Below are positions 1 through 45,002 of a DNA stretch of 45,123 bases, piece by piece. Position 1 is the first letter of the stretch; each line of letters begins with the position of its first letter. The translations under genes were made by a program, and so were the position numbers. Below the pieces are notes generated by a model, which was not told the origin of the DNA, made no database searches, and saw nothing but the letters and a program-made list of their open reading frames with translations. This DNA is from a virus: the UHGV virus genome UHGV-1374414, one strand, 5' to 3'.

Positions 1-2153
1 AGCACGCCGCGCTCGACCATATCGTCGATTGCCTTCGTCGATGTGCCGCCTTTCGCAAGTCCAGCCTGGCGGACAATTGCCGATTTACTGAATCCGGTAT
101 GGTCCGGGTTATCTTCCATCAGTTTTTCCAGCGCCGCATAAAGCACTTTCTCTTTTTCGTTGCGCGGTCCTGCGGCGTTCTCCTCCTTAACTGCGGCTTT
201 GCCAGCGGCCTTCGCCTGTTCGATGGCGAACGGTGCCAGGGCGACCGGTACGAGGTAAAGAGTCTCGTCGCGTGGCGTGGATGCGATCGGCTTGACGTCC
301 CAACCGGCAACGACGTCACCGAAGTCTGGCCCGGTGCTGGTGGACTGGTGTGCTTCGAACGCTTCGGACTTGCGGAGATCAACCTTAACCTTGCACTTGA
401 GCAGGACGAAGCCGCGCGGCGCTTGCTTGATGCCGTTACGTGATTTTTCGTGATACAGGTTGAGTTGACCTGGCTGGTTGTCGTCCGGCTGTTCCAGGAA
501 GAACGCAGAATCGACAGCACCATGAAGCGCGCCGGACCCGCGTGGCGTTCTGCTGCCGTTTGCACCTTTCGCCGGGTGGTGGATGACGCCCGCACTGCCA
601 CCTGTATTTTCCGCAATGGCCTTCAGCGCCTTGACCACTTCGCCCATATCGCTGGCGTTGTTCTCGTCGAACGGTTTAGCATCGGCGGACCGCAACGCTA
701 CAGTCTGGTTGAGTGAGTCGAACGCCACCAGGCCAACCGGTTCGCCGTTAGCGGTGCGGTTGATGAAGCTGATAACTTCACGCAGTCCTGATTTGCTGGT
801 GATATCCCAGCCGCGTGATTGCAGATCGATAATGTGCAGCTTGTCCAGGTCGTGCTCGTATTTAATCTGCAATGCTTCCTTACGCTGGTTGGAGGCTTCA
901 CCACCTTCCGCGTCGAAATAGAAACAATGAGACTGGACGACCTTCGCACCGCCGAACGGAATACCCGCGGCAACCGCGCCCATTTGCCCCAGCACGTAGA
1001 ACGATTTGCCGATGTTAGACTCGCCAGCCATATACCAGGTCGATTTGAAGTTAATCAGCCCTTCGATGATCGGGTCGTGCTTACTGAACAGTGCGACCGG
1101 TTCGTTATCCAGGTCAGCGTCGGTACATACGCCGTACTCGTCGCCGTCTCCGACCGCATCAACAATATGATCATATAGGGACTCGACTTCCTCGTCGTCC
1201 AGTCCGGGGAGGATGGCGGCGATTTGCTTGCGTGACATGTTGTGCGGTTCGACGTTCAGGTGGTCCGGGATCCCGATAAGACGCAGCGCCAGGTGCTGGT
1301 GTCTGTTCAGTTCCGAGCAACACTCGTTGCCGGTGTGCATACACTTGAAACGGATCTCGCCATCCTTAACCATGATAGCCGTCGACCCTTCACCACTGTG
1401 CAGGTGTTCGTTCGGGCACGGCACTTCATAACCACGACCGGACGACAGCGGTTCGAATCCTGCCTGGAAGCACCAATCCAGAATGCCGTCCGCCACGCCG
1501 TCATCGCCCTGGGTCAGTTCGCGGCGTACTTCCTCTTTTTCCACTCCCAGCTTATCAGCCAGGCGAAGCAGACGACGGACGCGGGCACGTTTGCCGTAGT
1601 GACACTTAACAACCGATTGCTGGTGAGGCAGGTACATAAGGCGGTTTGTGTCTTTTGTACAATCATCGAAGTCCACATCTGACAGGCCCAGTTGGTGTAA
1701 TAGTGCATACTGGACGCGGCCCAGGTCTTCAGCCGGTACAGGCTTGTCAGTGAGCACCAGGAAACGGGCGCAACGCGTGCCGCCCTTCAGCGGGTGGCGG
1801 TCGCCGGTGGTGGTGTGAAATACGTGTTCCAGACCCGCGTCAATGAACGCCTTACGGCAGCGGCGCAGGGTGCGGGTGTCGGTGCGGTCAATATCAAAGA
1901 ACAGGATCGAGCGGTCCACCGCACTGGTCTTACGACGCAATCCGTCACTGGTATACGCCACGATGCCATCGGCCTTACGCTTGCGGCGCGCATACTCGGC
2001 TTTATCTTCCGTCTTGTTGATATGCACCGAGGAGATTTCTTTCGCATCTTTGATAAATTCGAAAAACTCATCGGTCGTCATCTGGAAGTTTTCCGCCCTG
2101 GCTTTTTCGCCTTTTTTAGCGGGTTTTGTTACAGCGAATTTAATCAAGCTCAT
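1..2153 (-). CDS. replicative primase/helicase (primase-polymerase-like N-terminal domain + P-loop helicase); 5' portion, ORF runs off left edge
   Basis: Stop-free minus-strand frame from ATG 2153-2151 (MSLIKFAVTKPAKK...) to position 1; absent from ORF track because no stop in window. Walker A GESNIGKS near 1002-1025; DxD-like ILFFDIDRTD and Cys/His cluster in N-terminal half. Confidence 0.75.
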   Translation of the reverse strand, partial: MSLIKFAVTKPAKKGEKARAENFQMTTDEFFEFIKDAKEISSVHINKTEDKAEYARRKRKADGIVAYTSDGLRRKTSAVDRSILFFDIDRTDTRTLRRCRKAFIDAGLEHVFHTTTGDRHPLKGGTRCARFLVLTDKPVPAEDLGRVQYALLHQLGLSDVDFDDCTKDTNRLMYLPHQQSVVKCHYGKRARVRRLLRLADKLGVEKEEVRRELTQGDDGVADGILDWCFQAGFEPLSSGRGYEVPCPNEHLHSGEGSTAIMVKDGEIRFKCMHTGNECCSELNRHQHLALRLIGIPDHLNVEPHNMSRKQIAAILPGLDDEEVESLYDHIVDAVGDGDEYGVCTDADLDNEPVALFSKHDPIIEGLINFKSTWYMAGESNIGKSFYVLGQMGAVAAGIPFGGAKVVQSHCFYFDAEGGEASNQRKEALQIKYEHDLDKLHIIDLQSRGWDITSKSGLREVISFINRTANGEPVGLVAFDSLNQTVALRSADAKPFDENNASDMGEVVKALKAIAENTGGSAGVIHHPAKGANGSRTPRGSGALHGAVDSAFFLEQPDDNQPGQLNLYHEKSRNGIKQAPRGFVLLKCKVKVDLRKSEAFEAHQSTSTGPDFGDVVAGWDVKPIASTPRDETLYLVPVALAPFAIEQAKAAGKAAVKEENAAGPRNEKEKVLYAALEKLMEDNPDHTGFSKSAIVRQAGLAKGGTSTKAIDDMVERGV

Positions 2154-2163
2154 TGCCGTGGCC

Positions 2164-2493
2164 TTACTTAGAAGTTTTATTATTGCGTACCCAGGAGCGC
2201 ACTGTGCTCTGATTAATTCCGGTCAACTCGGCAATCATCGCCCATGATTTACCCTCGGCGCGCAAACGGATAACCTGCTTTTTGTATTCTTCCATTTCTT
2301 CATTGTGTTTTTGCAGCTTGCTTGCTGCGGTACCGTTGAGTAGTTCCAGCCTGGCGCGCAATTCTTTTTCGGTAAGCCGTAGTCGTTCGATTTCGAATAA
2401 CACCGCCCCCACGGCATCTGTATAAGCCCATGACCGGCTTGTCTCACTGCAAACAGTCTTCGTTAACATTTCGATTGCGTCGTTTACATTCAT
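2164..2493 (-). CDS. helix-turn-helix DNA-binding protein (possible regulator)
   Basis: 109-aa ORF; C-terminal GKSWAMIAELTGINQSTVRSWVRN is a classic HTH; N-terminal coiled-coil; SD GAGGGA upstream; directly upstream of primase gene. Confidence 0.7.
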   Translation of the reverse strand: MNVNDAIEMLTKTVCSETSRSWAYTDAVGAVLFEIERLRLTEKELRARLELLNGTAASKLQKHNEEMEEYKKQVIRLRAEGKSWAMIAELTGINQSTVRSWVRNNKTSK

Positions 2494-2507: not shown

Positions 2508-2524
2508 TTGGTTAATGACCAACG
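2508..2524. promoter_or_regulatory. palindromic operator-like site GTTGGT-N5-ACCAAC
   Basis: Perfect 6-bp inverted arms around taatg, in the leader of the minus-strand promoter. Confidence 0.4.
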
Positions 2525-2553
2525 AAACTACACCCAAAACTGCATGGTGTCAA
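2525..2553 (-). promoter_or_regulatory. sigma70-like promoter for HTH/primase operon (TTGACA-17-TAGTTT on minus strand)
   Basis: Minus strand reads TTGACA ccatgcagttttgggtg TAGTTT about 35 nt upstream of the HTH gene ATG. Confidence 0.45.
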
Positions 2554-2667: not shown

Positions 2668-2697
2668 TTGACACCCATCCTGCAACCAATCTATCAT
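2668..2697 (+). promoter_or_regulatory. strong sigma70-like early promoter (TTGACA-18-TATCAT)
   Basis: Consensus -35 TTGACA at 2668-2673, -10 TATCAT at 2692-2697; spacer contains GCAACCAAT motif; about 190-nt leader to first plus gene. Confidence 0.6.
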
Positions 2698-5332: not shown

Positions 5333-5567
5333 AGTATTCGCAATCTTATTGATGTTTTTGCTAGGCGCGCTGGTCTTTGGCCTGTATTGCGTGCAAGGCG
5401 TGTTAGCGGTGGCATGGATTATTCGCCACCCTAGCCAATGGGAGGACGACGGCTACAACAAAGGTGTTCCGGACTGGATGGCGAATAATGGCGACCGCCC
5501 GCCGTTAAGCTGGATCAATAACGCCGCCAACTACGTGAACAGAAATCTTTTTAATAAAAACGCTTGA
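5325..5567 (+). CDS. small membrane protein
   Basis: 80 aa; hydrophobic N-terminus VFAILLMFLLGALVFGLYCV; start overlaps nuclease stop. Confidence 0.5.
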   Translation: MNKVFAILLMFLLGALVFGLYCVQGVLAVAWIIRHPSQWEDDGYNKGVPDWMANNGDRPPLSWINNAANYVNRNLFNKNA

Positions 5568-5592
5568 CCGCTCAGGCGCAACCAAGTAGATT
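5564..5592 (+). promoter_or_regulatory. sigma70-like promoter (TTGACC-17-TAGATT) with GCAACCAAG motif in spacer
   Basis: -35 at 5564-5569, -10 at 5587-5592; direct repeats GCAACCAAG at 5578-5586 and 5594-5602. Confidence 0.5.
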
Positions 5593-5657
5593 AGCAACCA
5601 AGCCGGACGGGGTGGCTCACAATAACCCCGATACATGTGAAAATGAGGAATTGGAAA

Positions 5658-9615: not shown

Positions 9616-9890
9616 CACCGGAAGGCAAGATTCAAAGTCACCTGATGAAACGGGTGAAAGAGGTCGGCGGATTCTGCCGCAAACTGGCATGGGAGGGGCG
9701 CGCAGGTGCGCCCGACCTGATTATTATCATCAACGGCAAAATAGTGTTCGTCGAAGTGAAGCGCCCCGGAGGAAAACCGAAGCCGCACCAGGTACGTGAA
9801 CATGAGCGAATGGCCCGCCGCGGTGCTGACGTTCGCGTTATCGACAACATATCCGACTGCGATTTATTGGTTGCTGAATTGGTCGCATAG
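9612..9890 (+). CDS. VRR-NUC domain nuclease
   Basis: ATG overlaps HNH stop (ATGA); GAPDLIIIINGKIVFVEVKRPGGKPKPHQ fits VRR-NUC PD-(D/E)XK core. Confidence 0.75.
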   Translation: MTPEGKIQSHLMKRVKEVGGFCRKLAWEGRAGAPDLIIIINGKIVFVEVKRPGGKPKPHQVREHERMARRGADVRVIDNISDCDLLVAELVA

Positions 9891-9930
9891 CGGTATAGTG
9901 TGCCGGTTAGCCATATCGAGGATTTTAGCG

Positions 9931-10104: not shown

Positions 10105-10110
10105 TTAATA

Positions 10111-10135: not shown

Positions 10136-10141
10136 GGAGAC

Positions 10142-10366: not shown

Positions 10367-10370
10367 AGAT

Positions 10371-11795
10371 ATGGCACGATTCCGACGCCGCGAATATCAG
10401 AAGTTGATAACCGCGTTCATCCTCAAGCATAAGCGATGTAATATCTGGGCGACAATGGGATCGGGTAAAACCGGCGCGACAATGTGGGCGCTGAATAAAA
10501 TGTTCCAGACTGGCGTCCTGTCCCATCATGAGGACCGCGTACTGGTGCTGGCCCCGCTGCGTGTTGCGTCAGGTACATGGCCCCCGGAGCAGGAGAAATG
10601 GCGGTTCTCATCCCTGCTGGTCGTAGACGGCACTGGGTCGGAGAAGGAACGTATTGCGGCGCTTGAGAGCGATGCTAACGTGGTTTGTGTTAACTATGAT
10701 GTGGTTGAGTGGCTGGTTGACTATTACGGCGATGCGTGGCCCTTTACGGTCGTTGTTGCCGATGAATCCACTAAGCTGAAAGGCTACCGAAGTAAGCAGG
10801 GAAGTAAGCGCGCCCGCGCACTGGCGGCGATTGCACATAAACACGTCAAGCGCTGGATTAACCTTACCGGCACACCAGCGCCAAACGGCTTGAAAGACTT
10901 ATGGGGTCAGACGTGGTTTGTCGACGGTGGCGAACGACTCGGCAGTAGCTATAAGGCATTTACGGATCGCTGGTTTATTAGCAAGCCTGTTAAGCCTGGC
11001 AGCTTCACGATGCAGCACGCTCCGCTAAAGAACTCCGAGAAAGAAATACAACAACGCCTGTCTGACGTATCACTAACCGTTGACGCGGCTGAATACTTCG
11101 GGTGCGACAAGCCAATCTATACGCCGGTTGTCGTGGACCTGCCGAAGAAAGCCCGCAAGATTTACGACCAGTTTGAAAGCGAGCTATTTGCCGAACTGGA
11201 AAGCGGAACAGTGGAAGCGGCTAACGCTGCGTCGAAGACCATCAAGTGCCTTCAGCTTGCATCTGGGGCCGTGTACAAGGTGGACGAAGACGGCGAACGG
11301 ACCGACGAGTGGGTGAAGATTCACGACGCGAAGCTGGACGCGCTTGAAAGTATCGTGGAGGAATTGAACGGGGCGCCGTTGCTCGTTGCGTATCAGTATA
11401 AGCATGACCTTGCACGTCTTAAGAAGAAATTTCCGCACGGCGTTGCTTTGGGTAAAGGAAAGCAGGGCAATAAGGATATGGAAGCATGGAACAGGGGCGA
11501 GATCCCCATCATGTTTGCACACCCGGCATCGGCGGGCCACGGCCTCAACCTGCAGGATGGCGGACATCACCTGGCAATCTTCTCCGATACCTGGAACTTT
11601 GAGCACTTTTCGCAGATCGTTGAACGTATCGGGCCGGTTCGCCAGATGCAGGCCGGACACCCTAGACCGGTATTCGTCTACATTATCCAGGCGCGCGGGA
11701 CACTGGACGAATTGGTCGCCGAGCGTCGCGACAGTAAGCGAGATATTCAGGACGATTTGATGGAATACATGAAAGCGAAGAAGGCGCGCAAATGA
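10371..11795 (+). CDS. SNF2/DEAD-like superfamily 2 helicase
   Basis: ATG 10371 (ORF-track start 10281 overlaps upstream gene); motifs GSGKTG, VVADESTKLK, LTGTPAPNGL, HPASAGHGLNLQ. Confidence 0.8.
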   Translation: MARFRRREYQKLITAFILKHKRCNIWATMGSGKTGATMWALNKMFQTGVLSHHEDRVLVLAPLRVASGTWPPEQEKWRFSSLLVVDGTGSEKERIAALESDANVVCVNYDVVEWLVDYYGDAWPFTVVVADESTKLKGYRSKQGSKRARALAAIAHKHVKRWINLTGTPAPNGLKDLWGQTWFVDGGERLGSSYKAFTDRWFISKPVKPGSFTMQHAPLKNSEKEIQQRLSDVSLTVDAAEYFGCDKPIYTPVVVDLPKKARKIYDQFESELFAELESGTVEAANAASKTIKCLQLASGAVYKVDEDGERTDEWVKIHDAKLDALESIVEELNGAPLLVAYQYKHDLARLKKKFPHGVALGKGKQGNKDMEAWNRGEIPIMFAHPASAGHGLNLQDGGHHLAIFSDTWNFEHFSQIVERIGPVRQMQAGHPRPVFVYIIQARGTLDELVAERRDSKRDIQDDLMEYMKAKKARK

Positions 11796-12487
11796 TAATC
11801 TGGTCATTGTTCGACGGCAGCGGCTTGATGATTGAGCGTGCTGCCGAGATGGGGCATAAGTGCTACTGTTTTAACTACTCCGAAGCCGATCACGGGTCTT
11901 ACCTTGACTACCGGATTTATGGTCGCGGGATCCGCTATCGCAATGAGTTTATCGATATGGACTTTGTGGACCGCGCGATGAATGGCGATTTCGGTACGCC
12001 AGATATCATCTATGCGTTCCCTCCGTGTACGGATCTGGCAGTGAGCGGTGCACCAGCTTTCCCGCGCAAGCGTGCGAAAGACCCGGCCTTTCAGCTTAAG
12101 GCGGTGCGCACCGCGAAGATCGCAGCTTACCTGGGTGATTTCTTTGAAGTGCCATATATGATTGAGAATCCGCGCAGTGTTCTTTCCACCCAGTGGCGCA
12201 AGCCGGATCACTCGTTCGACCCGTGGGAGTATGGGGGCTATCTGCCGGAGGATGACGTACACCCGCTCTTCCCGGAATACATCAACGCCCGCGATTCATA
12301 TCCGAAGCTGACCTGCTTATGGACCGGCAACGGCTTCCGTATGCCAGAGAAGAAACCTGTTTTCGTTGAAAAAGGGTACTCGAAGCAGTATAGTCGCCTC
12401 GGAGGCAAATCAGCCCGCACAAAATTAATCCGGTCGCTCACTCCGCGCGGCTTCGCGATAGCGGTTAACGAGGAAAATTTAAGATGA
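11792..12487 (+). CDS. putative DNA cytosine-C5 methyltransferase-like protein (compact, 231 aa)
   Basis: Motif I SLFDGSG, motif IV AFPPCTDLAVSG (PC catalytic Cys), ENP motif; start overlaps helicase stop. Confidence 0.5.
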   Translation: MIIWSLFDGSGLMIERAAEMGHKCYCFNYSEADHGSYLDYRIYGRGIRYRNEFIDMDFVDRAMNGDFGTPDIIYAFPPCTDLAVSGAPAFPRKRAKDPAFQLKAVRTAKIAAYLGDFFEVPYMIENPRSVLSTQWRKPDHSFDPWEYGGYLPEDDVHPLFPEYINARDSYPKLTCLWTGNGFRMPEKKPVFVEKGYSKQYSRLGGKSARTKLIRSLTPRGFAIAVNEENLR

Positions 12488-12807
12488 ATACGACATTCGA
12501 AGCCATCGACTTTTCGGTCGCAATGACTAACCAGCTATTCACCTACGACAGCAAAACCGGCGTCATCCGTCTGAAGTCCACCGGCTGCAAGATTGGCAAC
12601 ATCAATACTGCCGATGGCGGAACACGTATCGAATGCAACGGAAAGACGCTGTCTGGCGCACGCGTGGCGTGGATTATTGAGACGGGCAATACAATCCCTC
12701 CCGGCTTCGCCGTTGTGTGTCGCCAGCGCACACCGGGCCACTACGGCAACCGAATCAGCAATCTGTATTTGGTAGACGTTGCACGCGACCCTAACTTTTA
12801 TGCGTAA
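12484..12807 (+). CDS. hypothetical protein
   Basis: 107 aa; start overlaps upstream stop; weak HNH/AP2-like resemblance only. Confidence 0.5.
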   Translation: MNTTFEAIDFSVAMTNQLFTYDSKTGVIRLKSTGCKIGNINTADGGTRIECNGKTLSGARVAWIIETGNTIPPGFAVVCRQRTPGHYGNRISNLYLVDVARDPNFYA

Positions 12808-12812
12808 ATTGG

Positions 12813-12841
12813 TTGCATAATCATATTGGTTGCATTATATT
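12813..12841 (+). promoter_or_regulatory. sigma70-like promoter TTGCAT-17-TATATT built from two ATTGGTTGCAT direct repeats
   Basis: ATTGGTTGCAT at 12808-12818 and 12825-12835; -10 TATATT at 12836-12841; gene starts at 12889. Confidence 0.5.
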
Positions 12842-12888
12842 GAGGGTGTCCGGTTTGGACGCCCTTTTTAATACCCGGAGACAACACG

Positions 12889-13347
12889 ATGAAAATTTTA
12901 CAAGAAGAGAAAAATTACTGGGCCGCGCAATGCCTCGAAGCCCGCGAGCAAGCCGATCGGGCGAACGCGGTGGCGGACACCAACCAGGCGCTATATGAAG
13001 GCGAGAAGAAAGTGCGCCAGGAGCTAGAGGAGCGCTTCGAACTGCTTTTCGAATTGATGGGGATTATGCAGCGCACTGGATACACAACCAGCGTTGCGCT
13101 AAATCGCATCACTGCCGATGGTTTGCGTGAGCATTGCAAACGTGCCGAGGAGTACGTGCGCCCAAAAGGTCGCCAGTCTAAGATCGACCGTAAAGATCTG
13201 GTGCTTGTGGCGTGGCGCAATCCCACAAATGGCTATTTTCATGGTCGCCCTATGAGCGCCGAGGAGTCAAAGCGAGTGCAGCGAATCCTGAAGAAAGGCA
13301 ACAATATCGCCCTGTACGCGATAGCCCCCGACCATGACGAAGAATGA
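12889..13347 (+). CDS. hypothetical protein
   Basis: 152 aa; SD GGAG 8 nt upstream. Confidence 0.6.
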   Translation: MKILQEEKNYWAAQCLEAREQADRANAVADTNQALYEGEKKVRQELEERFELLFELMGIMQRTGYTTSVALNRITADGLREHCKRAEEYVRPKGRQSKIDRKDLVLVAWRNPTNGYFHGRPMSAEESKRVQRILKKGNNIALYAIAPDHDEE

Positions 13348-13819
13348 GCAAAAGGATAGCTGGCGCACGCCGCCAGCTTTATTTAAACCGCTGCGCCGTA
13401 AGTTCCGATTCCGTTACGATATGGCGGCGAGCGACGCCAATCATCTGCTACCGCGTTACTTCACGGCGGAGCGCAGCGCGCTTGATGTGGACTGGGCAGA
13501 GTTGAAAGGGTGGAAGTGGTGCAATCCGCCGTATTCCGACCCGCTGCCGTGGGTGGAGTGCGCAGCGCACGGACGCCGGACTGTCATGCTGCTGAATCAG
13601 GACACGTCGACGAAGTGGGCGAGGCTGGCCCGGAAGACTGCAAACCTGATAATTCTTCTGGACTGGCGGATTAGATTCATTCACGCCGTCACCGGTGAAG
13701 TTGGGCCGAGCAATAACAAGTGCCAGCAATTGATAATATTTGACGAAGCGCCGCCCATCGGCAGCGCACAAATTGAAATAATGAGCGAGAGTGAGTTACA
13801 TGAATATCTTAATCGTTGA
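13334..13819 (+). CDS. phage DNA N6-adenine methyltransferase (Dam-like)
   Basis: 161 aa; N-terminal DSWRTPPALF and WCNPPYS (NPPY motif). Confidence 0.75.
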   Translation: MTKNEQKDSWRTPPALFKPLRRKFRFRYDMAASDANHLLPRYFTAERSALDVDWAELKGWKWCNPPYSDPLPWVECAAHGRRTVMLLNQDTSTKWARLARKTANLIILLDWRIRFIHAVTGEVGPSNNKCQQLIIFDEAPPIGSAQIEIMSESELHEYLNR

Positions 13820-14024
13820 CCGCGACCCAGCGGTAGTAGACCAAATGCAAAAAGACTACGGTATTGACCCGCGACGCAATCGTGTGGTGCGCGCGTCTCG
13901 CCCCGAATACATCCAGGGCCTTGACCTCACCGGTTGGCTTGACATGACTCGGCGTTGCCATTTCGTGTGCAACTCCTTTACTGCGCGAAGCGCCCGTTAC
14001 ACCCTTATTGAGAGTTTAAAATGA
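13800..14024 (+). CDS. hypothetical protein
   Basis: ATG 13800; 74 aa; stop overlaps next ATG (ATGA). Confidence 0.45.
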   Translation: MNILIVDRDPAVVDQMQKDYGIDPRRNRVVRASRPEYIQGLDLTGWLDMTRRCHFVCNSFTARSARYTLIESLK

Positions 14025-14491
14025 AATTACTGATTTGCGATTTGGATGGCGTTATTAACGGTTCAAGCGATGCGCGTGCCGACCTGGTTCCGGGTATAAA
14101 AACGAAATCAACCTTCTGGGCAAAGTGGCACAAAGCGCACGTACGCGAAGACCTGAACATGGATATGCTGCCGCTGTTGCGCATGTACAAAGAGCAAGGC
14201 TTCGAGATCGCGTATCTGACCAACCGGCAGCGAGAATGCTGGGACACGACCGCCGAACAACTGGAGGTCTTCCCGGTGGGCCGGTTGTTTATGCGCCATA
14301 TGCAGGACGACACCCCGCCGCCAGAGTTTAAGGCGTGCGCCGTGTTCAAAATGGTTTGCTATGCGGACGTATCGGAACTGGTCATCATTGAAGACTGTCC
14401 GAAGAACATCGCGGCAATTCGTCGGGCGTGTAGCGATCTGGTCCCGAAAATTTACGCAATAAATGTTGCAAAATTTACTTGCAACCAATAG
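14021..14491 (+). CDS. HAD-superfamily phosphatase (nucleotidase / polynucleotide 3'-phosphatase-like)
   Basis: 156 aa; HAD motif I LLICDLDGVI, motif II YLTNR, acidic motif IIEDCP. Confidence 0.55.
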   Translation: MKLLICDLDGVINGSSDARADLVPGIKTKSTFWAKWHKAHVREDLNMDMLPLLRMYKEQGFEIAYLTNRQRECWDTTAEQLEVFPVGRLFMRHMQDDTPPPEFKACAVFKMVCYADVSELVIIEDCPKNIAAIRRACSDLVPKIYAINVAKFTCNQ

Positions 14492-14508
14492 GTTGGTTGC
14501 ACTATAGT
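14479..14508 (+). promoter_or_regulatory. sigma70-like promoter TTGCAA-18-TATAGT overlapping inverted repeat TGCAACCAA-tagg-TTGGTTGCA
   Basis: 9-bp inverted arms at 14480-14488 and 14493-14501; -10 TATAGT at 14503-14508; downstream gene at 14554. Confidence 0.45.
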
Positions 14509-14553
14509 TAACGCGTCGGGGCAATACAGCCCCTCACTTAAAAGGGTAATACT

Positions 14554-15048
14554 GTGAAAGCATACGAATACTGCAAAAACGCCGCCACCACTATGGAACA
14601 GCGCGGGAAAGAAAACGGCTATGACGGCGAGAAAGAAGAACGCAGTGCTAAGCAGATCGCTGCCGTGTTTAACGCGCTTACCGGTCGCGACCTTACCGAA
14701 CAAGAAGCCTGGGTCTTTATGATCTGCCTGAAGCTGGTGCGCCAGCAACGCAAGCACCAGGAAGATAATATCGTCGACCTGGTCGCGTATGCCGCCCTAC
14801 TGGGCGAGTCGTATATGACCGTGCACGACGAGATTCAGGTAGATACAACGGCAGAACAGTTTGAAAGCCTCAAAGGCTGGCCTATCAAGATCAAAGCCAC
14901 TAATTTCAATGCCGCCAATTTCGGCGTCGTAGCCCAGGACGTCCAGCCTATGGTCGTGCTCTCCGGCAAAGATGGGTCGAAAATCCTCATGACGCCGGAA
15001 GACTTCCGCAACATGGAAAAAACACTGGTGACTGGCGCACTGAAATAA
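14554..15048 (+). CDS. hypothetical protein
   Basis: 164 aa; GTG start with AAGGG SD 7 nt upstream. Confidence 0.5.
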   Translation: MKAYEYCKNAATTMEQRGKENGYDGEKEERSAKQIAAVFNALTGRDLTEQEAWVFMICLKLVRQQRKHQEDNIVDLVAYAALLGESYMTVHDEIQVDTTAEQFESLKGWPIKIKATNFNAANFGVVAQDVQPMVVLSGKDGSKILMTPEDFRNMEKTLVTGALK

Positions 15049-15089
15049 TTTAATCGCGGGCTTCGGCCCGCATCATCGAGGATCACACG

Positions 15090-15665
15090 ATGTACGGCGA
15101 ATATGAAATATCTGGTAAACAATTCCACCTGGCGGCAATGATAGCAAGCATCGAGTTTGATCAATGGCGCTTAAAGTCTGACGCGTGCAAGCAAAGCCGA
15201 CTGGTCGGTGTGCTGGGCGAAATGTTTGCAGGCATGTACCTTGAAGGGCAAGCAGGCGGGCGCAGTTGTATACCGCAGGGTCTGCTTATGCGTACGGGCC
15301 TGTTTAGCGCCAATACCATTGACCGCGGCGATATCATCATGGTCGGCAAGCGCAAGGTTAAGTCCGGTCCAGACTTCCGCGAGCATGTGATCGATGCCGT
15401 ATGGACCTACGAGGTTAAGGCCACCAGCGGCATCCGTCGCGGACTGGTTGAGGCACGTTGCGCTCGCGAATATCTATCACGTCGCGTTGCCGGGGTTATC
15501 CTGGTTGGTGTGTCGTTAGGGCCGCAAAGCGCGCACGGCGTGATTGAGGATATCGCGGAGCCGTACGTGATTGTGAACGACTGGCCCTTAGTGGAAGTGG
15601 AGGGAAAGGAATATTTCGAAAGCCCGCTGGTGCGGCGCAAAATGGACTGGGAAAACTCAAACTAA
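15090..15665 (+). CDS. hypothetical protein (possible PD-(D/E)XK-like nuclease)
   Basis: 191 aa; SD GAGGA 8 nt upstream; weak motif GDIIMVGK...IDAVWTYEVK. Confidence 0.55.
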   Translation: MYGEYEISGKQFHLAAMIASIEFDQWRLKSDACKQSRLVGVLGEMFAGMYLEGQAGGRSCIPQGLLMRTGLFSANTIDRGDIIMVGKRKVKSGPDFREHVIDAVWTYEVKATSGIRRGLVEARCAREYLSRRVAGVILVGVSLGPQSAHGVIEDIAEPYVIVNDWPLVEVEGKEYFESPLVRRKMDWENSN

Positions 15666-17517: not shown

Positions 17518-17538
17518 AGCTAAATCCTCGTAAATTGG

Positions 17539-17566
17539 TTGCATTCTTGATCGAGCGGTGTAATAC
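17539..17566 (+). promoter_or_regulatory. candidate promoter TTGCAT-16-TAATAC with ATTGGTTGCAT motif
   Basis: ATTGGTTGCAT at 17534-17544, about 55 nt upstream of lipoprotein gene. Confidence 0.35.
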
Positions 17567-17597
17567 TAAAACTCAACCAAATATAGGAGATGATACC

Positions 17598-22882: not shown

Positions 22883-23613
22883 TCTGTGATATCCCCCGGT
22901 AGGTCTTTATGACGTACCCATTTAACCACATTGTCGCGGAAAAATCCCGCCCGGAAGGGGATCACGCTCGACAGGCTGCCGTAGATATGGTGTAGTAATT
23001 GGTTGCCCGGAAGGTAGATTCCGGCATGGTTAGGCACTGGCGCGCTAATCTGCATGATGACCATCGCCCCCGGCGTATTCTCCTCACACTCCCGGAAGCC
23101 AGCGCCATACCAATTGTCCATATACAGGTTTTCGCCTGTCTCCCACCAGTTGTACGGTACACGGAAGTCTGGCAGGTTTACGCCCTGCTTTTTATGCCAA
23201 TCCATAACGAGGCCATAACAATCCGTAATTCCGAGAACAAATCGGCGACCTACCAGCGGCGGGTCTTCCGGGTCGATCTCGATAAAGTCGCCATATTCGT
23301 TAGTGATGGTCCAGACGACGCCGCTGCCGTTGCAGCCGTTAACGTCGCCCAATGACGGGGTTAACTCGCGCTGACCGGGGTGCGAGTGGACTACGCGCAC
23401 GACGTCGCCCATATCCTCGGCATCCATCCAGGCCATATCGCTAATTGTAAACGCGTCTTTGCGCGAGCGCGCGCCGGTGGGGTCTTCGAAGACGTTCAGG
23501 CACGGGATAAACACTTGTTTGCGGCCCACCATGACGACCAGCCCGCACGCTTCTTCCGGCAGACATGCCGCAACGTGTGCGGCGATATCGCGTTTAACCT
23601 TCTTCGTTAGCAT
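22873..23613 (-). CDS. tail assembly protein (lambda K-like; JAB/MPN + NlpC/P60 motifs)
   Basis: 246 aa; HSHPGQRELTPSLGD (JAMM-like) and C-terminal GITDCYGLVMDWH (NlpC/P60-like Cys). Confidence 0.65.
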   Translation of the reverse strand: MLTKKVKRDIAAHVAACLPEEACGLVVMVGRKQVFIPCLNVFEDPTGARSRKDAFTISDMAWMDAEDMGDVVRVVHSHPGQRELTPSLGDVNGCNGSGVVWTITNEYGDFIEIDPEDPPLVGRRFVLGITDCYGLVMDWHKKQGVNLPDFRVPYNWWETGENLYMDNWYGAGFRECEENTPGAMVIMQISAPVPNHAGIYLPGNQLLHHIYGSLSSVIPFRAGFFRDNVVKWVRHKDLPGDITEWQ

Positions 23614-25036: not shown

Positions 25037-27679
25037 TCATCGTTTGTAAAGTACACCACCCGGTTTCGTCGCTTTCACGATCTCGGCCTTCACCGCTTCG
25101 GTGATTTGCTTTCCGAACGCCTGCGCGGTGCGCGGGTCTGGTCCGCTAACACTGGTATCCGTCTTACCGGTCCCCATGTTAACGTTGGTCGTTACAATCA
25201 TCCCTCCGCCTACACCGGCAGCGGCAACGCCCAGTTTGCCGTCCGGCCCGCGCTTCAGTGGCATGATGGCTTCGGGTCCGGCCTCCCCCATCAATCCTGC
25301 GCCCTTAGCGAACGCCTGGACGCCATAACTGAAAAAGGTGGGCTGGCTTACCACTTGCCCCGAATAGGCCGCTAGGTTGCCCCCTGCGTACGCTCCGCCG
25401 TCCGCATTCTTAGTGAGGCCGGAAAAGATAGCGCCGAACAATCCGTTTTTGCCGCCGTCGCCACCGAAAGCGCTAACGATGGACTTGAACGCCTGCGAGG
25501 TAGCCAGCTTTATTAATTCGCTCAGAATGGACTTAACCATATCTTTTGCGTTCAGCTTGCCAGTCTCGAAAAACTCGTTCATCGTGTCCTGCATAGCGCC
25601 GAACGTGAATTTTGTGAGTGACGCCATCTGCGTATAGCCGTTACCCATTTCATCCACGCTATCCTTAAGCCCACGGCTGAATCCATCCCATAGTGAGGCG
25701 TTAGCACCGGTCTGTGCTTCCTGCACTTCGCGCAGCTTAGACACCGCCAGATCAATATCGGTATCGTTAGCGCCCACCCGCTTCAGGCGGTCAATTAGCT
25801 GCAATTCTTCGCGCAGGTTAGCCGCTTCGCGAGTGGAAAGCGCATAGCCCGCCGCGGTTGCTTTTAGCTCGGCGTTCTGGTTCTTAACGAAGGCGTCGAT
25901 CTGCGCGTGCGCCTTGACCTGCTTCTCTTTCGCGTCCAGCAATTTAGCTTCTTCTACGATCTGCTCGCGGACTTCCTTCACGCGCCCGAACTCGACTAAT
26001 TGCTGCTTCTCTGCTGCCGTTAGTGCCCTTTCTTTGCTTGCGGCGATTAACTGCTCATTATCCGCGATCAGCTTGTTTAGGGCCGCTTGCGCGCGTTGCG
26101 TGCGGGTCTGCGTCGAGGAGTTGGCTTCGATCTGCTTTCCAGACTCACGAAGCTGTGCCAGTTCGCTTCGCGCGACTTCCAGCATTTTCAGCCCGGCATC
26201 GACTCGAATAGCGGCGGCCTTCTTCGGGGCGGGGTCTTTGTAACGCTTGTTTACCTGCTTCACCGCCTCGGCAAGCTCTTTCTCGTCAATCACGCCGCGC
26301 TTATTAAGCAAATTGAGGCGGGCGATCTCGTCGGCGCGCCTCTTCGCGTTGGTTGCGTACTCCTTCTCAAACGCAGCGCGGTCGCGGGCGGTGCGGTTTG
26401 CCTCTTCGTTCGACTTTGCTGCTTCATCCGCGGCGCGGGCGTTGTCACGCTCCGCACGGTTACGCAGGGTGAGCGACGCCACTACTTTTTCCTGGGCTAC
26501 CAGTTCGCTATAAAGCATGTTAATACGTGCTTTCTGCGCCTCGGTCATTACCCCACCGGCAGCGTTTACCGCTTTCATCTCGGCATAATAGGCCGTAGTC
26601 ATGCGCTGCAAGGATTCCCGCGCTTTCATCTCGGACTCATTCGAGGACTGCGCGCGACCCACATCCAGGATTGCATCCCACATAGATTTCGCTGCCGATG
26701 TGACGACGTTCATCGACCGCTCAAGCGTGCCCATGTTGGACTTAATATCGTTGGTCATAGTGGTGAACGACGCGGCTGCGGTTTTGTTAGCCAGCGCCAC
26801 TGCTTCAGTCTCACGACCCATATCCACAAGCGACTGCACCTGCTGGATCTGCGCTTCGTTTACGACGTGATACTTATCCGCCAATGCTCGCAAGCCGCCT
26901 ACCGGGTCGGTTGACAGCTTCGCCACCGCCGCGACCACATCCTCGATCGGCTGGCTGGATACCTTCGAAAAATCATTCACCACTTTCGCCAGCGTGCCGA
27001 AGTCTGCACCCGCTTTCACACCAGCCGCCGCCAGTGCCTGGATTGTGTCACGCGTTTTACGGAATGACCCGCCCATGCGCTCGGCGTTCTCGGATAGCAC
27101 CAGGATCTGGTTTGCCGTTAGGCCGGAAATGTTACCTGACAGCGCCAGCGTCTTGTTAAGCGCTGCGACCTGGTTCTCTGCGCGGGACGTAATTGCCACG
27201 CCCACGCCTAACGTTGCCGTTACGGCGGCAAGGCCGATCCCTACTGGGCCGAGGAAGCCCGCAACAAAACGCAGCGTGTTACCCAGTCCGCCGAACGCCC
27301 CGGTAAGCTGTGGTAACTGCTGAAGCATAACGCGGTGCACCGGCATACCCATCTCAAGCGTAACTGCGATATCCTGTAACTGGAATGCGGCGTTACGCGA
27401 GGCAAAGCCCAGGTTTTTGGTCGACATGCCTAACCGGTTGGCAAGTCGCTCCTGTTTCGTCATGCCATCGGCGGCGCGCTGCGATTCGTTCGCCAGCTTT
27501 TCCATTCCTCCCGCGGCGTCACTCGTCACCTTTTTGGATTTGCCGAGGGTGTCGTTTAATTTCTTAACCTTGTTTTCTGTGTTCTCGGATTTCTGTGCGA
27601 AGGAGTCCAACACAGTATTTGCCGTTCTGATTTGTGCAACATCCGCCTTCAGCGTGATGCCTGCTGCTTGATCTGCCAT
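25037..27679 (-). CDS. tail tape measure protein
   Basis: 880 aa; Ala/Gln/Lys-rich, coiled-coil-like; SD AAGGGGA; position between chaperone and distal tail genes. Confidence 0.85.
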   Translation of the reverse strand: MADQAAGITLKADVAQIRTANTVLDSFAQKSENTENKVKKLNDTLGKSKKVTSDAAGGMEKLANESQRAADGMTKQERLANRLGMSTKNLGFASRNAAFQLQDIAVTLEMGMPVHRVMLQQLPQLTGAFGGLGNTLRFVAGFLGPVGIGLAAVTATLGVGVAITSRAENQVAALNKTLALSGNISGLTANQILVLSENAERMGGSFRKTRDTIQALAAAGVKAGADFGTLAKVVNDFSKVSSQPIEDVVAAVAKLSTDPVGGLRALADKYHVVNEAQIQQVQSLVDMGRETEAVALANKTAAASFTTMTNDIKSNMGTLERSMNVVTSAAKSMWDAILDVGRAQSSNESEMKARESLQRMTTAYYAEMKAVNAAGGVMTEAQKARINMLYSELVAQEKVVASLTLRNRAERDNARAADEAAKSNEEANRTARDRAAFEKEYATNAKRRADEIARLNLLNKRGVIDEKELAEAVKQVNKRYKDPAPKKAAAIRVDAGLKMLEVARSELAQLRESGKQIEANSSTQTRTQRAQAALNKLIADNEQLIAASKERALTAAEKQQLVEFGRVKEVREQIVEEAKLLDAKEKQVKAHAQIDAFVKNQNAELKATAAGYALSTREAANLREELQLIDRLKRVGANDTDIDLAVSKLREVQEAQTGANASLWDGFSRGLKDSVDEMGNGYTQMASLTKFTFGAMQDTMNEFFETGKLNAKDMVKSILSELIKLATSQAFKSIVSAFGGDGGKNGLFGAIFSGLTKNADGGAYAGGNLAAYSGQVVSQPTFFSYGVQAFAKGAGLMGEAGPEAIMPLKRGPDGKLGVAAAGVGGGMIVTTNVNMGTGKTDTSVSGPDPRTAQAFGKQITEAVKAEIVKATKPGGVLYKR

Positions 27680-33624: not shown

Positions 33625-33653
33625 TTGCAATCCGCGTATTGGTTGCATATATT
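33625..33653 (+). promoter_or_regulatory. sigma70-like promoter TTGCAA-17-TATATT with tandem ATTGGTTGCA motifs
   Basis: Motif copies at 33638-33648 and 33651-33661; 25-nt stretch 33650-33674 identical to minus-strand 44510-44486. Confidence 0.5.
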
Positions 33654-33681
33654 GGTTGCACACCAACATGAGGATATGACA

Positions 33682-41029: not shown

Positions 41030-41059
41030 AGTGTAATACTCCTCTCGTTGATTGGTCGC

Positions 41060-41089
41060 AGTATGGCGTATATGTTGGTTGCAAGTCAA
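41060..41089 (-). promoter_or_regulatory. sigma70-like promoter TTGACT-18-CATACT (minus strand) with TTGCAACCAAC motif in spacer
   Basis: Located between terminator 41096-41128 and gene starting at 41029. Confidence 0.4.
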
Positions 41090-43911: not shown

Positions 43912-44177
43912 TTGCTCAGTCTCCAGTGTTTGCCTACCCGCTCAATGGCGGGCTTTCGGCGTAATGTAATACGGATCCCCATTGGTTGCAAGGAAGTCCG
44001 CACCCTGAAATCGTGTTGTGCTGCGAACTGGTGCAAGTAGCGAGTCTGCGTTAACGGCTTTACGTCGTCGCGATAGCACCAGAATACCGATTCGCCCTCA
44101 ACCGCATTCTCAGCCCATATTCGTATGCAATGCAGGGGAATATGCCACGAAAGCTGTTTTGCGCGTCTGCGGCTCAT
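43908..44177 (-). CDS. hypothetical protein (possible diverged third paralog)
   Basis: 89 aa; C-terminus IERVGKHWRLSK resembles RVGRKATWRLRK of neighbour. Confidence 0.5.
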   Translation of the reverse strand: MSRRRAKQLSWHIPLHCIRIWAENAVEGESVFWCYRDDVKPLTQTRYLHQFAAQHDFRVRTSLQPMGIRITLRRKPAIERVGKHWRLSK

Positions 44178-44477: not shown

Positions 44478-44505
44478 TGTTCAGTCCTCATGTTGGTGTG
44501 CAACC

Positions 44506-44534
44506 AATATAGCAGGGTGCCAGGGCGGATGCAA
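44506..44534 (-). promoter_or_regulatory. sigma70-like promoter TTGCAT-17-TATATT (minus strand) from two ATATTGGTTGCA repeats
   Basis: Minus-strand -35 = plus 44529-44534, -10 = plus 44506-44511. Confidence 0.5.
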
Positions 44535-44611
44535 CCAATATTAATCACGCGCATGAAAAAGTTGATCGCTATCTGCTGTGACTGCAAACTGCGTTTTTCA
44601 CTCCGCATAAT

Positions 44612-44630
44612 GCAACCTGCATTGGTTGCC
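44612..44630. promoter_or_regulatory. inverted repeat GCAACC-tgcatt-GGTTGC (motif-derived operator-like site)
   Basis: Perfect 6-bp arms; overlaps ATTGGTTGCC at 44621-44630. Confidence 0.35.
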
Positions 44631-44873: not shown

Positions 44874-44900
44874 ATAACTATTCACTATATCTACACTACA

Positions 44901-45002
44901 CGGCAACCAATGCGACCAGCTAAAAACACTCAATCCGGCAACCAATGCTCGCACAAATTAATCGTTTAGCGATATGGGGATTCCCATATCGGCAACCAAT
45001 GC
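44901..45002. repeat. three direct repeats of CGGCAACCAATGC plus a 20-bp palindrome
   Basis: Repeats at 44901-44913, 44936-44948, 44990-45002; palindrome GATATGGGGATTCCCATATC at 44971-44990. Confidence 0.7.

What the first reader, a model, noticed from the sequence alone, without database searches (positions are those of the whole stretch)
12808..12841. Genome-wide enriched ATTGGTTGCA / GCAACCAAT motif forms the core of most intergenic promoters
I found by eye at least 17 non-coding occurrences of TTGGTTGC or its reverse complement (about 1-2 expected by chance for a fixed 8-mer on both strands in 45 kb): 2682, 5578, 5594, 12809, 12826, 14481, 14493, 17535, 33639, 33652, 41075, 44500, 44531, 44623, 44903, 44938, 44992. 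They usually sit in promoter spacers or supply the -35 (TTGCAT) and flank the -10 (TATATT); several are tandem or inverted pairs. The core TTGGTTGCAACCAA is palindromic, so it may be both a promoter element and the site of a dimeric regulator. Coding occurrences (22999, 43982) were not counted exhaustively.
Basis: seen in the sequence. Interest (0 to 1): 0.7.

Follow-up and report, generated by a model that had tools for sequence, protein, structure and literature searches.

The report
Conserved operator-like motif at Dhillonvirus promoters
A 9-10 bp sequence, ATTGGTTGC(A/C), is built into nearly every early, middle and accessory-gene promoter of this E. coli siphophage and all its relatives, and is most likely the binding site of a phage-wide transcription regulator that has not been described.

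Summary
TTGGTTGC or its complement occurs 21 times, against 2.0 expected. It is the most over-represented 9/10-mer in the window. Sixteen copies lie in the 8.3% of the window that is non-coding.

The window is a complete, circularly permuted Dhillonvirus (HK578/SO-1-like) genome. The motif overlaps about eleven predicted sigma-70-type promoters just upstream of genes. In some it lies in the spacer next to the -10, in either orientation. In others it supplies a TTGCAx -35, or covers +1. The motif stays invariant while neighbouring bases drift. The same layout survives in relatives with about 70% nucleotide identity.

Position and orientation relative to the -10 vary, and one relative has a flipped site. 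The proposed palindrome TTGGTTGCAACCAA never occurs. It therefore behaves as an asymmetric operator overlapping promoters, not as a fixed promoter element.

The only recognisable DNA-binding protein is the 109-aa HTH protein (2164-2493, minus strand). It is lineage-restricted, has an invariant C-terminal HTH, and carries variant sites in its own promoter. Binding and the sign of regulation are inferred, not shown, and a host factor is not excluded.

This is a new member of a known kind: a phage global regulator with dispersed operators.

The parts
12808..12841 (+). P4, the reported site. Motif copy 12808-12817 supplies the -35 TTGCAT (12813-12818). Second copy 12825-12834 lies in the spacer, 2 nt from the -10 TATATT (12836-12841). 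The gene starts at 12889.
   Evidence: Sequence. The copies are near-invariant while the 6-8 nt between them vary across 16 genomes. The same geometry is present in L018 and L022.
2668..2697 (+). P1: TTGACA-18-TATCAT, 11 of 12 matches and the best sigma-70 match in the window. An antisense motif (2681-2690) lies in the spacer, 2 nt from the -10. The gene starts at 2714.
   Evidence: In the alignment the motif TGCAACCAATCTA is invariant while the spacer bases beside it, and the spacer length, vary.
2508..2553 (-). PL, the promoter of the HTH and helicase-primase operon: TTGACA-17-TAGTTT (2553-2525). It is followed by the palindrome TTGGTCATTAACCAA (2522-2508) around +1.
   Evidence: It is conserved in 16 genomes. 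L017/L018 carry an exact motif in the HTH 5' region. L022 has ATTGGTG in the spacer of TTGACT-16-TACTAT.
2164..2493 (-). Gene for the 109-aa HTH protein, the candidate binder. It is the first gene of the leftward operon and lies immediately upstream of the helicase-primase gene.
   Evidence: Pfam matches HTH_23 (2e-7), HTH_28 and Sigma70_r4_2 at residues 65-105. The family is confined to this phage lineage. The C-terminal 60 aa are invariant and the N-terminus is swapped among relatives.
5564..5601 (+). P2: TTGACC-17-TAGATT. Antisense motif copies lie in the spacer (5578-5585) and just after the -10 (5594-5601). It sits upstream of the SSB and DNA polymerase genes.
   Evidence: and the footprint.
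9866..9899 (+). P3: motif 9866-9875 gives the -35 TTGCTG. A degenerate copy ATTGGTCGCA (9878-9887) lies in the spacer. The -10 is TATAGT (9894-9899).
   Evidence: The same layout is present in L018 and L022.
14479..14508 (+). P5: TTGCAA-18-TATAGT, with an inverted pair TGCAACCAA-N4-TTGGTTGCA (14480-14501).
   Evidence: In L039 the -10-proximal copy is flipped in orientation at the same position.
17534..17567 (+). P6: motif 17534-17543 gives the -35 TTGCAT. The -10 is TAATAC/AATACT. It drives the small plus-strand gene 17598-17816, which lies inside the tail module.
33625..33666 (+). P7: TTGCAA-17-TATATT. Motif copies are at 33638-33647 (spacer) and 33651-33660 (-10/+1, part of the palindrome TTGGTTGCACACCAA). 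It drives a plus-strand accessory gene, 33682-34194.
   Evidence: The cassette is conserved, but the gene downstream differs among relatives (at least 4 alternatives).
41051..41089 (-). P8: TTGACT-18-CATACT directly after a terminator. An antisense motif (41074-41083) abuts the -35. A degenerate copy (41051-41060) follows the -10. Then come the RBS GAGAGGAG and an ATG at 41029.
   Evidence: The same layout is present in L018 and L022.
44493..44539 (-). P9: motif 44530-44539 gives the -35 TTGCAT. The spacer is 17 nt and variable. The -10 TATATT overlaps a second motif, 44499-44508 (palindrome 44493-44507). The gene starts at 44477.
44877..45002 (-). Region-B sites: three direct copies of GCATTGGTTGCC (44902-44913, 44937-44948, 44991-45002) just after the helicase-primase stop codon. 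The copy at 44902 may act as the -35 of a weak promoter, TTGCCG-18-AATAGT (44906-44877), that reads into the GCGGGACA repeats.
44619..44630 (+). A fourth GCATTGGTTGCC copy, inverted relative to the other three. Together the four copies bracket the GCGGGACA repeat and hairpin block.
   Evidence: It is conserved with variable flanks.
22998..23007 (+). Copy inside a coding region (tail gene), conserved in GeorgBuechner. No function is assigned.
43981..43990 (+). Copy inside a coding region. On the minus strand it forms TTGCAA-17-TACATT (43991-43963), a possible internal promoter.
26348..26357 (+). Copy inside the tape-measure gene. It is not conserved in GeorgBuechner and is probably a chance occurrence.

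Best explanation
ATTGGTTGC(A/C) is the asymmetric operator of a phage-wide transcription regulator. It is laid over the host-RNA-polymerase (sigma-70) promoters of the early, DNA-metabolism, lysis-proximal and accessory transcription units of Dhillonviruses.

The most likely reader is the phage's own 109-aa protein (2164-2493, minus strand). It consists of a long helix followed by a C-terminal three-helix HTH. It is made from the divergent control region, and its own promoter carries variant sites.

Most promoters have a site in the -14 to -27 spacer region or over +1. Several of them already have consensus -35 and -10 boxes and must fire before any phage protein exists. Occupancy is therefore most simply expected to repress. 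That would mean autoregulation and a shut-down or throttling of early and middle transcription as the protein accumulates. The motif-free structural-operon promoters would remain active.

Copies placed exactly at the -35 could in addition mediate activation, but this is speculative.

Shown here: enrichment, location, promoter context, purifying selection, and co-occurrence with the HTH family.

Inferred: that a protein binds, which protein it is, and the sign of regulation.
For: 1. Enrichment and intergenic bias: 21 copies vs 2.0 expected. Sixteen of 21 lie in the 8.3% of the window that is non-coding (P = 7e-14)..

2. Promoter overlap. Six copies lie fully inside the 26 sites scoring at least 9/12 against the sigma-70 consensus. 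Those sites cover 1.65% of the window (P = 9e-7). About eleven -35/-10 pairs lie 17-50 nt upstream of start codons in the correct orientation (distances measured by me from the sequences and coordinates).

3. Selection. Motif columns are invariant in 79% of cases, against 58% for other intergenic columns. Differing cells are 4.8% vs 13.6% (Fisher P = 5e-6). The footprints show variable bases directly beside invariant motifs.

4. Deep conservation of the layout. The motif is still the top enriched word, at the same promoters with the same geometry, in relatives of about 70% nucleotide identity. These are L017-L019 and L022.

5. Orientation and position are free. The motif occurs sense or antisense, at the -35, in the spacer or at +1. 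One site is flipped in L039. This fits occupancy of a site rather than polymerase recognition.

6. Candidate reader. It is the only recognisable DNA-binding domain among the 30 products scanned against Pfam, i.e. the small and unassigned ORFs rather than every gene. The family is restricted to this lineage. The HTH half is invariant while the N-terminal 45 aa are exchanged. Variant sites are conserved in its own promoter in three lineages.

7. Negative control. Hafnia phage TS33 has the same gene layout and a helicase-primase 45% identical. It carries a Cro/C1-type HTH at that position and has only one TTGGTTGC in 40 kb.
Against: - There is no binding, footprint or 5'-end data. Every promoter is a consensus prediction.
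- The L022 homologue is only 45% identical, with changes in the putative recognition helix (STVRSWVRN vs STIKNWIYR). Yet the motif is unchanged. There is therefore no protein-DNA covariation, and a more conserved reader, such as a host protein, would explain the invariance equally well.
- A 9-10 bp asymmetric site with variable pair spacing is unusual for a small HTH protein that probably dimerises through a long helix.
- Four copies in region B flank origin-like repeats rather than clear promoters.
- Repression of essentially all early and middle promoters, including the one reading towards the terminase gene, has not been reconciled with how the late genes are expressed.
Confidence: 0.55

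Rival explanations
1. The motif is the binding site of a conserved host protein, either a transcription factor or a nucleoid protein of Enterobacterales. The phage uses it at its promoters, and the phage HTH protein does something else, such as a replication role.
For: The motif is unchanged across phage lineages whose HTH proteins are only 45% identical. A slowly evolving host reader would explain that. From memory only, ATTGGT resembles half-sites of FadR-type GntR regulators (PdhR, UxuR), and GTTGCAT resembles the CytR octamer.
Against: - I could recall no E. coli factor with an ATTGGTTGC consensus.
- The GntR-type sites are TTGGT-N3-ACCAA palindromes. Here most sites are single and asymmetric, and the three palindromes have N5.
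- The CytR-like 3' extension (ATT) is not conserved, whereas the 5' ATTGG is.
- Hafnia phage TS33, related and infecting Enterobacterales, has no enrichment.
- The host genome could not be scanned with these tools.
Confidence: 0.15
2. The motif is an intrinsic promoter element read by RNA polymerase itself, either unmodified or modified by a phage factor. This is the first reader's main idea: a special -35 or extended element that defines 'phage promoters'.
For: In P3, P4, P6 and P9 the sense copy sits so that TTGCAx lies 17 nt (16 or 17 in P6) upstream of a TAnnnT -10. The motif contains two TTG triplets.
Against: - P1, P2 and P8 have their own consensus -35 and carry the motif antisense in the spacer.
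- Copies also sit at +1, and in region B without a convincing -10.
- The orientation flips in L039.
- The invariant ATTGG half is not something sigma-70 region 4 needs.
- The relaxed promoter overlap statistic is partly circular because the motif contains TTG.
Confidence: 0.12
3. The motif is primarily a replication element. It would be the set of binding sites (iterons) of an origin-binding protein encoded with the helicase-primase gene. On this view the promoter copies are secondary.
For: The HTH gene is co-transcribed with the helicase-primase gene. Six copies cluster in the 534-bp region just after that gene. Four identical 12-mers bracket the repeat and hairpin block there.
Against: - About 15 copies lie elsewhere, each tied to a -35/-10 pair in front of a gene.
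- Region A, the duplicate of the repeat block (27680-28062), has no ATTGGTTGC copy.
- A different repeat, GCGGGACA, looks like the true iteron. It changes to GGGGTGCCA in L022 while ATTGGTTGC does not.
- The HTH N-terminus varies independently of the helicase-primase. The HTH is 77% identical in JLBYU60 while the helicase-primase is 99.4% identical.
Confidence: 0.08

Closest known systems
Phage P1 C1 repressor and its dispersed asymmetric operators (from my own knowledge)
   Same: It is a single phage-encoded regulator with many (more than 15) asymmetric operators scattered over the genome. Each overlaps a promoter. Some sites are single and some are paired in either orientation.
   Different: P1 is temperate and C1 is its immunity repressor. 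The operators are 17 bp. C1 is a 283-aa protein unrelated to the 109-aa HTH here. Dhillonviruses are regarded as strictly virulent.
Mycobacteriophage L5 gp71 'stoperators'. These are cited as an analogy for the TLS phage repeats in PMC11447400.
   Same: There are about 30 copies of a short asymmetric site spread through the genome in short intergenic spaces. They are read by a small HTH protein that binds as a monomer.
   Different: Stoperators are oriented with the direction of transcription and act on elongation. Here both orientations occur and the sites overlap core promoter elements. L5 is temperate.
Lambda Cro/CI operators in a divergent control region
   Same: A small HTH gene is the first gene of one arm of a divergent early control region. 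Its sites overlap the -35/-10 of both divergent promoters, giving autoregulation. The positional equivalent in the related Hafnia phage TS33 is a Cro/C1-type HTH.
   Different: Lambda operators are 17-bp dyads confined to two regions. Here the sites are asymmetric 9-10-mers at about eleven promoters genome-wide. The HTH belongs to a different family (HTH_23/sigma-r4-like).
T4 MotA box at middle promoters
   Same: It is a phage-specific 9-bp word associated with host-polymerase promoters that keep a sigma-70 -10.
   Different: The MotA box has a fixed position (-30) and orientation, and it replaces the -35. The present motif does not. That was tested here and not met.
21-nt direct repeats of T1-like phage TLS (PMC11447400)
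   Same: It is an uncharacterised, genome-wide, mostly intergenic repeat in a virulent coliphage that uses host polymerase. The authors discuss it as a possible operator or enhancer.
   Different: The sequence is different (aaATAGCACnnnTTGnTAAAA). The repeats are direct only. They are not shown to overlap -35/-10 pairs.
KorA/KorB global regulon of IncP plasmids (from my own knowledge)
   Same: A mobile element places copies of one operator at most of its promoters. The operators sit at defined positions relative to the -35/-10 in order to throttle expression.
   Different: It is a plasmid system. The operators are palindromic and the proteins are unrelated.

Membership tests
Sigma-70-type promoter | -35-like and -10-like hexamers separated by 16-18 nt | tested here: met
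   Five motif-bearing sites pass the 9/12 rule (2668+, 5564+, 14479+, 33625+, 41089-). Five or six more pass TTGnnn-16..18-TAnnnT. The relaxed rule is partly circular because the motif contains TTG.
Sigma-70-type promoter | Located upstream of, and pointing towards, a gene | tested here: met
   The -10 boxes end 17-50 nt before start codons at 2714, 5643, 9931, 12889, 14554, 17598, 33682, 41029, 44477 and 2493 (distances measured by me).
Sigma-70-type promoter | Transcript 5' ends 5-9 nt downstream of the -10 | not testable with these tools
   No transcriptome or 5'-end data for any Dhillonvirus was found in the paper library.
Operator of a phage-encoded repressor or regulator | Sites overlap core promoter elements (-35, spacer, -10, +1) | tested here: met
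   Every predicted motif-bearing promoter has at least one copy between -40 and +16 (positions derived by me).
Operator of a phage-encoded repressor or regulator | A cognate DNA-binding protein is encoded by the same genome and co-occurs with the sites | tested here: met
   An HTH protein is present in every relative that carries the motif. It is absent, and the motif is not enriched, in Hafnia phage TS33. Co-occurrence is not proof of binding.
Operator of a phage-encoded repressor or regulator | Protein and site co-vary | tested here: inconclusive
   The HTH half is invariant in 19 cluster representatives. The one divergent homologue (45% identity, altered recognition helix) still has the same motif.
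Operator of a phage-encoded repressor or regulator | Direct binding and a regulatory effect | not testable with these tools
   This needs EMSA or footprinting, and reporters.
   TTGGTTGCAACCAA is absent; the best matches have at least 2 mismatches. Pair spacings run from 9 to 54 nt, in direct or inverted order (spacings read by me). Only three TTGGT-N5-ACCAA palindromes exist, and they are not kept in L022 or L013.
MotA-box-like positional promoter element | Fixed distance and orientation relative to the -10 | tested here: not met
   Sense copies lie 19 nt from the -10 in P3, P4 and P9. Other copies lie 1-2 nt, 9 nt or 0 nt from the -10, in antisense orientation, or after the -10 (distances measured by me). 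The orientation flips in L039.
L5-type stoperator | Orientation correlates with the direction of transcription | tested here: not met
   P1, P2 and P8 carry antisense copies. P3, P4, P6, P7 and P9 carry sense copies. P5 carries one of each (strands compared by me with the promoter strands).
Replication iterons | A tandem array at or near the origin, next to the initiator gene, with specificity co-evolving with the initiator | tested here: not met
   Only 6 of 21 copies are in region B, and none is in its duplicate, region A. The sequence is unchanged in L022, where the neighbouring GCGGGACA repeats are replaced by GGGGTGCCA.
Structured RNA element | A stable or covarying RNA fold, or an Rfam match | tested here: not met
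   There are no Rfam hits in the window. The +1 palindromes fold at -3.5 kcal/mol with z about 0. Most copies lie upstream of the predicted start sites.

The most novel reading that the evidence does not exclude
A strictly virulent siphophage runs its whole early and middle programme through one small modular protein. That protein has a frozen C-terminal HTH that reads about 20 asymmetric ATTGGTTGC sites, and an N-terminal 45-aa module that is swapped between phages. It acts as a dual switch: repressor at spacer and +1 sites, activator at -35 sites. Through the four sites that bracket the origin-like repeats beside the helicase-primase gene, it also couples transcription shut-off to origin firing.
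Probability: 0.15. Interest if true: 0.6.

Novelty: new member of a known kind. Interest (0 to 1): 0.4.

Why it matters
Dhillonviruses are among the most frequently isolated coliphages. More than 150 genomes are in the phage collection searched here. They are part of the BASEL collection and are candidates for phage therapy. Their transcription programme, however, is uncharted.

This motif gives a ready-made map of about eleven promoters and operators, and it points to a testable regulator. The candidate gene is mis-annotated in GenBank as 'transposase', 'resolvase' or 'Gam inhibitor'.

The motif also marks conserved expression cassettes, such as 33625-33660, into which different accessory genes are plugged. 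That is useful for finding anti-defence genes and for phage engineering.

If the protein is confirmed, it would be a compact example of a genome-wide regulon in a virulent phage that relies only on host polymerase.

Tried and rejected
- Palindrome or dimer-site idea. TTGGTTGCAACCAA is absent. The TTGGT-N5-ACCAA palindromes are real (3 vs 0.02 expected) but occur at only three promoters and are not conserved in L013 or L022.

- RNA explanation. Rfam finds nothing. The 5'-UTR hairpins are no more stable than shuffled sequence.

- The 380-aa 'putative transcriptional regulator' of the SO-1 annotation (39528-40670). It is a metallophosphoesterase/exonuclease, not a DNA-binding regulator.

- Search for other DNA-binding proteins. 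Pfam scans of 30 small or unassigned products found only the 109-aa HTH.

- Structure. The AF2 model has pLDDT 85. Foldseek against the PDB gave only generic HTH matches (DeoR, LuxR-type, IstA, resolvase), none significant. A PDB sequence search was uninformative.

- Covariation test. A 45%-identical homologue (P0025) was found through the representative search, and its contig was recovered. The motif there is unchanged, so there is no covariation signal.

- Literature. Searches for the sequence itself, and for Dhillonvirus, HK578, SO-1 or SSL-2009a together with 'promoter', found no description of the motif. The sequence-string search returned only primer hits.

- Host regulon. This could not be tested, because no whole E. 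coli genome can be scanned for an 8-10-mer with these tools.

Full report
**Observation.**
TTGGTTGC or its complement occurs 21 times in the 45,123-bp window. Dinucleotide-preserving shuffles give 2.02 +/- 1.65, with a maximum of 6, and 0 of 100 reach 21.

Copies at 9867 and 26349 were missed. The extended form is A-TTGGTTGC-(A/C). GCAACCAAT (16 vs 0.30 expected) and TGCAACCAAT (10 vs 0.07) are the most over-represented 9- and 10-mers of the whole window.

**What the window is.**
It is a complete, circularly permuted Dhillonvirus genome (HK578/SO-1-like E. coli siphophage). It is 88-95% identical to more than 150 GenBank phages. The two ends of the window join inside the helicase-primase gene.

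I mapped the GeorgBuechner gene set onto the window. This gives a plus-strand block at 2515-15665 (recombination, SSB, DNA polymerase, helicase, methylases). The minus-strand arm starts at the HTH gene (2493-2164). It then runs through the helicase-primase gene, small genes, the lysis genes, terminase, and the head and tail genes down to 15694.

Non-coding DNA is 8.3% of the window. It holds 16 of the 21 copies (P = 7e-14). Two more copies lie in the last codons of genes.

**Anatomy.**
The copies coincide with sigma-70-like promoters immediately upstream of genes. Six copies lie fully inside the 26 sites that score at least 9/12 against the consensus. Those sites cover 1.65% of the window (P = 9e-7).

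Two layouts recur.
- **Class I** has its own consensus -35 and carries the motif antisense in the spacer.
  - P1: 2668 TTGACA-18-TATCAT.
  - P2: 5564 TTGACC-17-TAGATT, with a second copy just after the -10.
  - P8: 41089(-) TTGACT-18-CATACT, with a degenerate second copy after the -10.
  - Sources.
- **Class II** has a sense copy placed so that its TTGCAx is the -35, with the core 19 nt from the -10. There is usually a second copy in the spacer or over the -10/+1 region.
  - P3: 9871.
  - P4: 12813, the reported site.
  - P6: 17539.
  - P9: 44534(-).
  - Sources.

P5 (14479) and P7 (33625) have TTGCAA -35 boxes with a copy abutting the -10.

PL is the promoter of the HTH gene itself: TTGACA-17-TAGTTT at 2553-2525(-). 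It is followed by TTGGTCATTAACCAA. The pattern TTGGT-N5-ACCAA occurs three times against 0.02 expected, each time around +1 of a promoter (PL, P7, P9).

Six copies lie in the 534-bp 'region B' after the helicase-primase gene. Four identical 12-mers, GCATTGGTTGCC, bracket a block of other repeats there.

The intergenic regions inside the structural operon have no copy. Two of them show extended -10 candidates instead, at 39272-39280(-) and 33590-33598(-).

**Conservation.**
GeorgBuechner has 20 copies at the orthologous places. Fourteen IMG/VR genomes have the same.

In alignments of nine promoter regions from 7-20 genomes, motif columns are invariant in 79% of cases. Other intergenic columns are invariant in 58%. 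Differing cells are 4.8% against 13.6% (Fisher P = 5e-6). The footprints are sharp. In P1, P2, P4, P7, P8 and P9 the bases next to the motif, and even the spacer length, vary while the motif does not.

Relatives with only about 70% nucleotide identity, a different gene content, or both still show ATTGGTTGC as the top enriched word. These are L017-L019 and L022. The motif sits at the same promoters with the same geometry. For example, GCAACCAA-TC-TAATAT in P1, TTGACG-tGCAACCAA in P8, and two sense copies in P4.

In L039 the -10-proximal copy of P5 is flipped in orientation at the same position.

**Candidate reader.**
Thirty small or unassigned products were scanned against Pfam. Only the 109-aa product of 2164-2493(-) has a DNA-binding domain: HTH_23, HTH_28 and Sigma70_r4_2 at residues 65-105.

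The '380-aa regulator' of the SO-1 annotation is a metallophosphoesterase.

The HTH family is tiny and lineage-restricted:
- In the phage collection, its matches are Dhillonvirus-type genomes of about 42-46 kb. A few records carry other host names.
- It forms 24 clusters among 5.8 billion proteins.
- It has three full-length representatives among 1.84 billion; the other hits are generic HTH matches.

Residues 46-106 are essentially invariant, while the N-terminal 45 residues exist in several unrelated versions.

The AF2 model (pLDDT 85) is a long helix (21-79) ending in a three-helix HTH. Foldseek finds only generic HTH domains, none significant.

Hafnia phage TS33 has the same gene layout and a helicase-primase 45% identical. 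It carries a Cro/C1-type HTH at that position and has one TTGGTTGC in 40 kb.

Against the assignment, the L022 homologue is 45% identical with a changed recognition helix, yet its genome uses the same motif. So there is co-occurrence but no covariation.

**Mechanism.**
The shown facts are these. The motif is a selected, asymmetric, orientation-independent 9-10-mer. It overlaps the core of about eleven predicted host-polymerase promoters. It is conserved together with one lineage-specific HTH protein.

The inference is that the motif is an operator. Class I promoters are near-consensus and must fire on naked incoming DNA. A protein sitting at -14 to -27 or over +1 is therefore most simply a repressor. 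That would give autoregulation at PL and a throttling or shut-off of early and middle units, leaving the motif-free structural promoters active. Whether the copies at the -35 also activate is open.

I put 0.55 on 'operator of a phage-wide regulator at sigma-70 promoters'.

**Rivals.**
- **A host factor (0.15)** would explain the invariance. I know of no matching E. coli consensus, and the host genome could not be scanned.
- **An intrinsic polymerase element (0.12)** fits class II. It fails on antisense copies, +1 copies, the flipped site and the invariant ATTGG half.
- **Iterons (0.08)** fit the region-B cluster. They do not fit the 15 promoter copies or the absence from region A. A different repeat, GCGGGACA, behaves like the iteron. 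It is clustered in regions A and B, and in L022 it is replaced by GGGGTGCCA while the adjacent hairpin and ATTGGTTGC are kept.
- **An RNA role** is not supported.

**Comparison with what is known.**
The motif works like the dispersed asymmetric operators of phage P1 C1, and in part like the L5 stoperators, lambda Cro/CI and the IncP Kor regulon. It is not a member of any of those families. The protein is unrelated, the phage is virulent, and the orientation rule of stoperators and the fixed position of T4 MotA boxes were tested and not met.

The closest published parallel in a virulent coliphage is the uncharacterised 21-nt repeat of TLS (PMC11447400).

No paper in the searchable library describes the Dhillonvirus motif. 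The SO-1 GenBank record only flags regions A and B as repeats.

**Verdict.**
The feature is real, strongly non-random and conserved. The 'palindromic core' and the 'promoter element' readings are not.

It is a new member of a known kind. Interest is moderate (0.4): it is useful for a much-isolated phage genus and directly testable, but not conceptually surprising.

Noticed in passing
window 27680-28062 and 44478-45011: Two regions about 17 kb apart share a ~170-bp segment of GCGGGACA(A) repeats. The window has 16 copies of GCGGGACA, at least 12 of them in these two regions. The segment also holds a conserved long hairpin at 27745-27805 and 44690-44745 (RNA fold -25 and -28 kcal/mol, z -3.7 and -4.3). 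These are the 'region A/B' repeats of the SO-1 GenBank record. Region A sits between the tail chaperone and tape-measure genes, and region B sits after the helicase-primase gene. This looks like an origin plus a second cis site, as in P4 ori/crr (my analogy)..
   Followed up: partly
L022 12600-13131: In the distant relative L022 the hairpin is kept (-26.7 kcal/mol). The neighbouring repeats are GGGGTGCCA instead of GCGGGACA, while ATTGGTTGC is unchanged. This is iteron-like turnover of specificity.
   Followed up: partly
whole window, e.g. 552, 2974, 9589, 18055 ... 44661: ACGGCAGC occurs 27 times against about 2 expected. Twenty-three copies are on the minus strand regardless of gene direction. 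It is also the top 8-mer in Hafnia phage TS33. It could be a strand-skewed octamer of the Chi type or a packaging or replication-polarity signal.
   Followed up: no
window 33625-34194; loci L023-L036: The P7 promoter-operator cassette is conserved, but the gene it drives differs among relatives, with at least four unrelated starts. It is a plus-strand accessory ('moron') slot inside the minus-strand structural module. Here it holds a 170-aa protein with only a weak DNA_pol3_beta_2 hit.
   Followed up: partly
window 2164-2493 (-) and homologues P0001-P0025: The HTH protein has an invariant C-terminal 60 aa, but its N-terminal ~45 aa exist in several unrelated versions. This is domain swapping. 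GenBank annotations ('transposase', 'resolvase', 'Gam nuclease inhibitor') are almost certainly wrong.
   Followed up: partly
window 2714-2875 and 2893-3414 (+): The first rightward gene is one 232-aa ORF in GeorgBuechner. Here it is split into two frames, so there is a frameshift, a sequencing error or a real pseudogene.
   Followed up: no
window 41029-40802 (-) and about 40811-40731 (-): Two small ORFs downstream of P8 are not in the transferred annotation. One is 75 aa with the strong RBS GAGAGGAG. The other is about 26 aa and hydrophobic.
   Followed up: no
window 39272-39280 (-) and 33590-33598 (-): Extended -10 candidates TGTTATAAT (before the small terminase gene) and TGATAATAT (before gp08 and the major capsid gene) lie in motif-free intergenic regions. 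They may be late promoters. For the second, the P7 motif pair lies roughly 40-70 nt upstream on the other strand.
   Followed up: no
window 8958-9611: This ~650-bp stretch is absent from GeorgBuechner. It lies between the DNA polymerase gene and the VRR-NUC gene. ORF 8917-9615 has no Pfam match.
   Followed up: no
window 28383-28391 (-): The slippery sequence GAAAAAAAC lies at the end of the 120-aa gene upstream of region A. It is the expected -1 frameshift site of the tail assembly chaperone G/GT pair.
   Followed up: no
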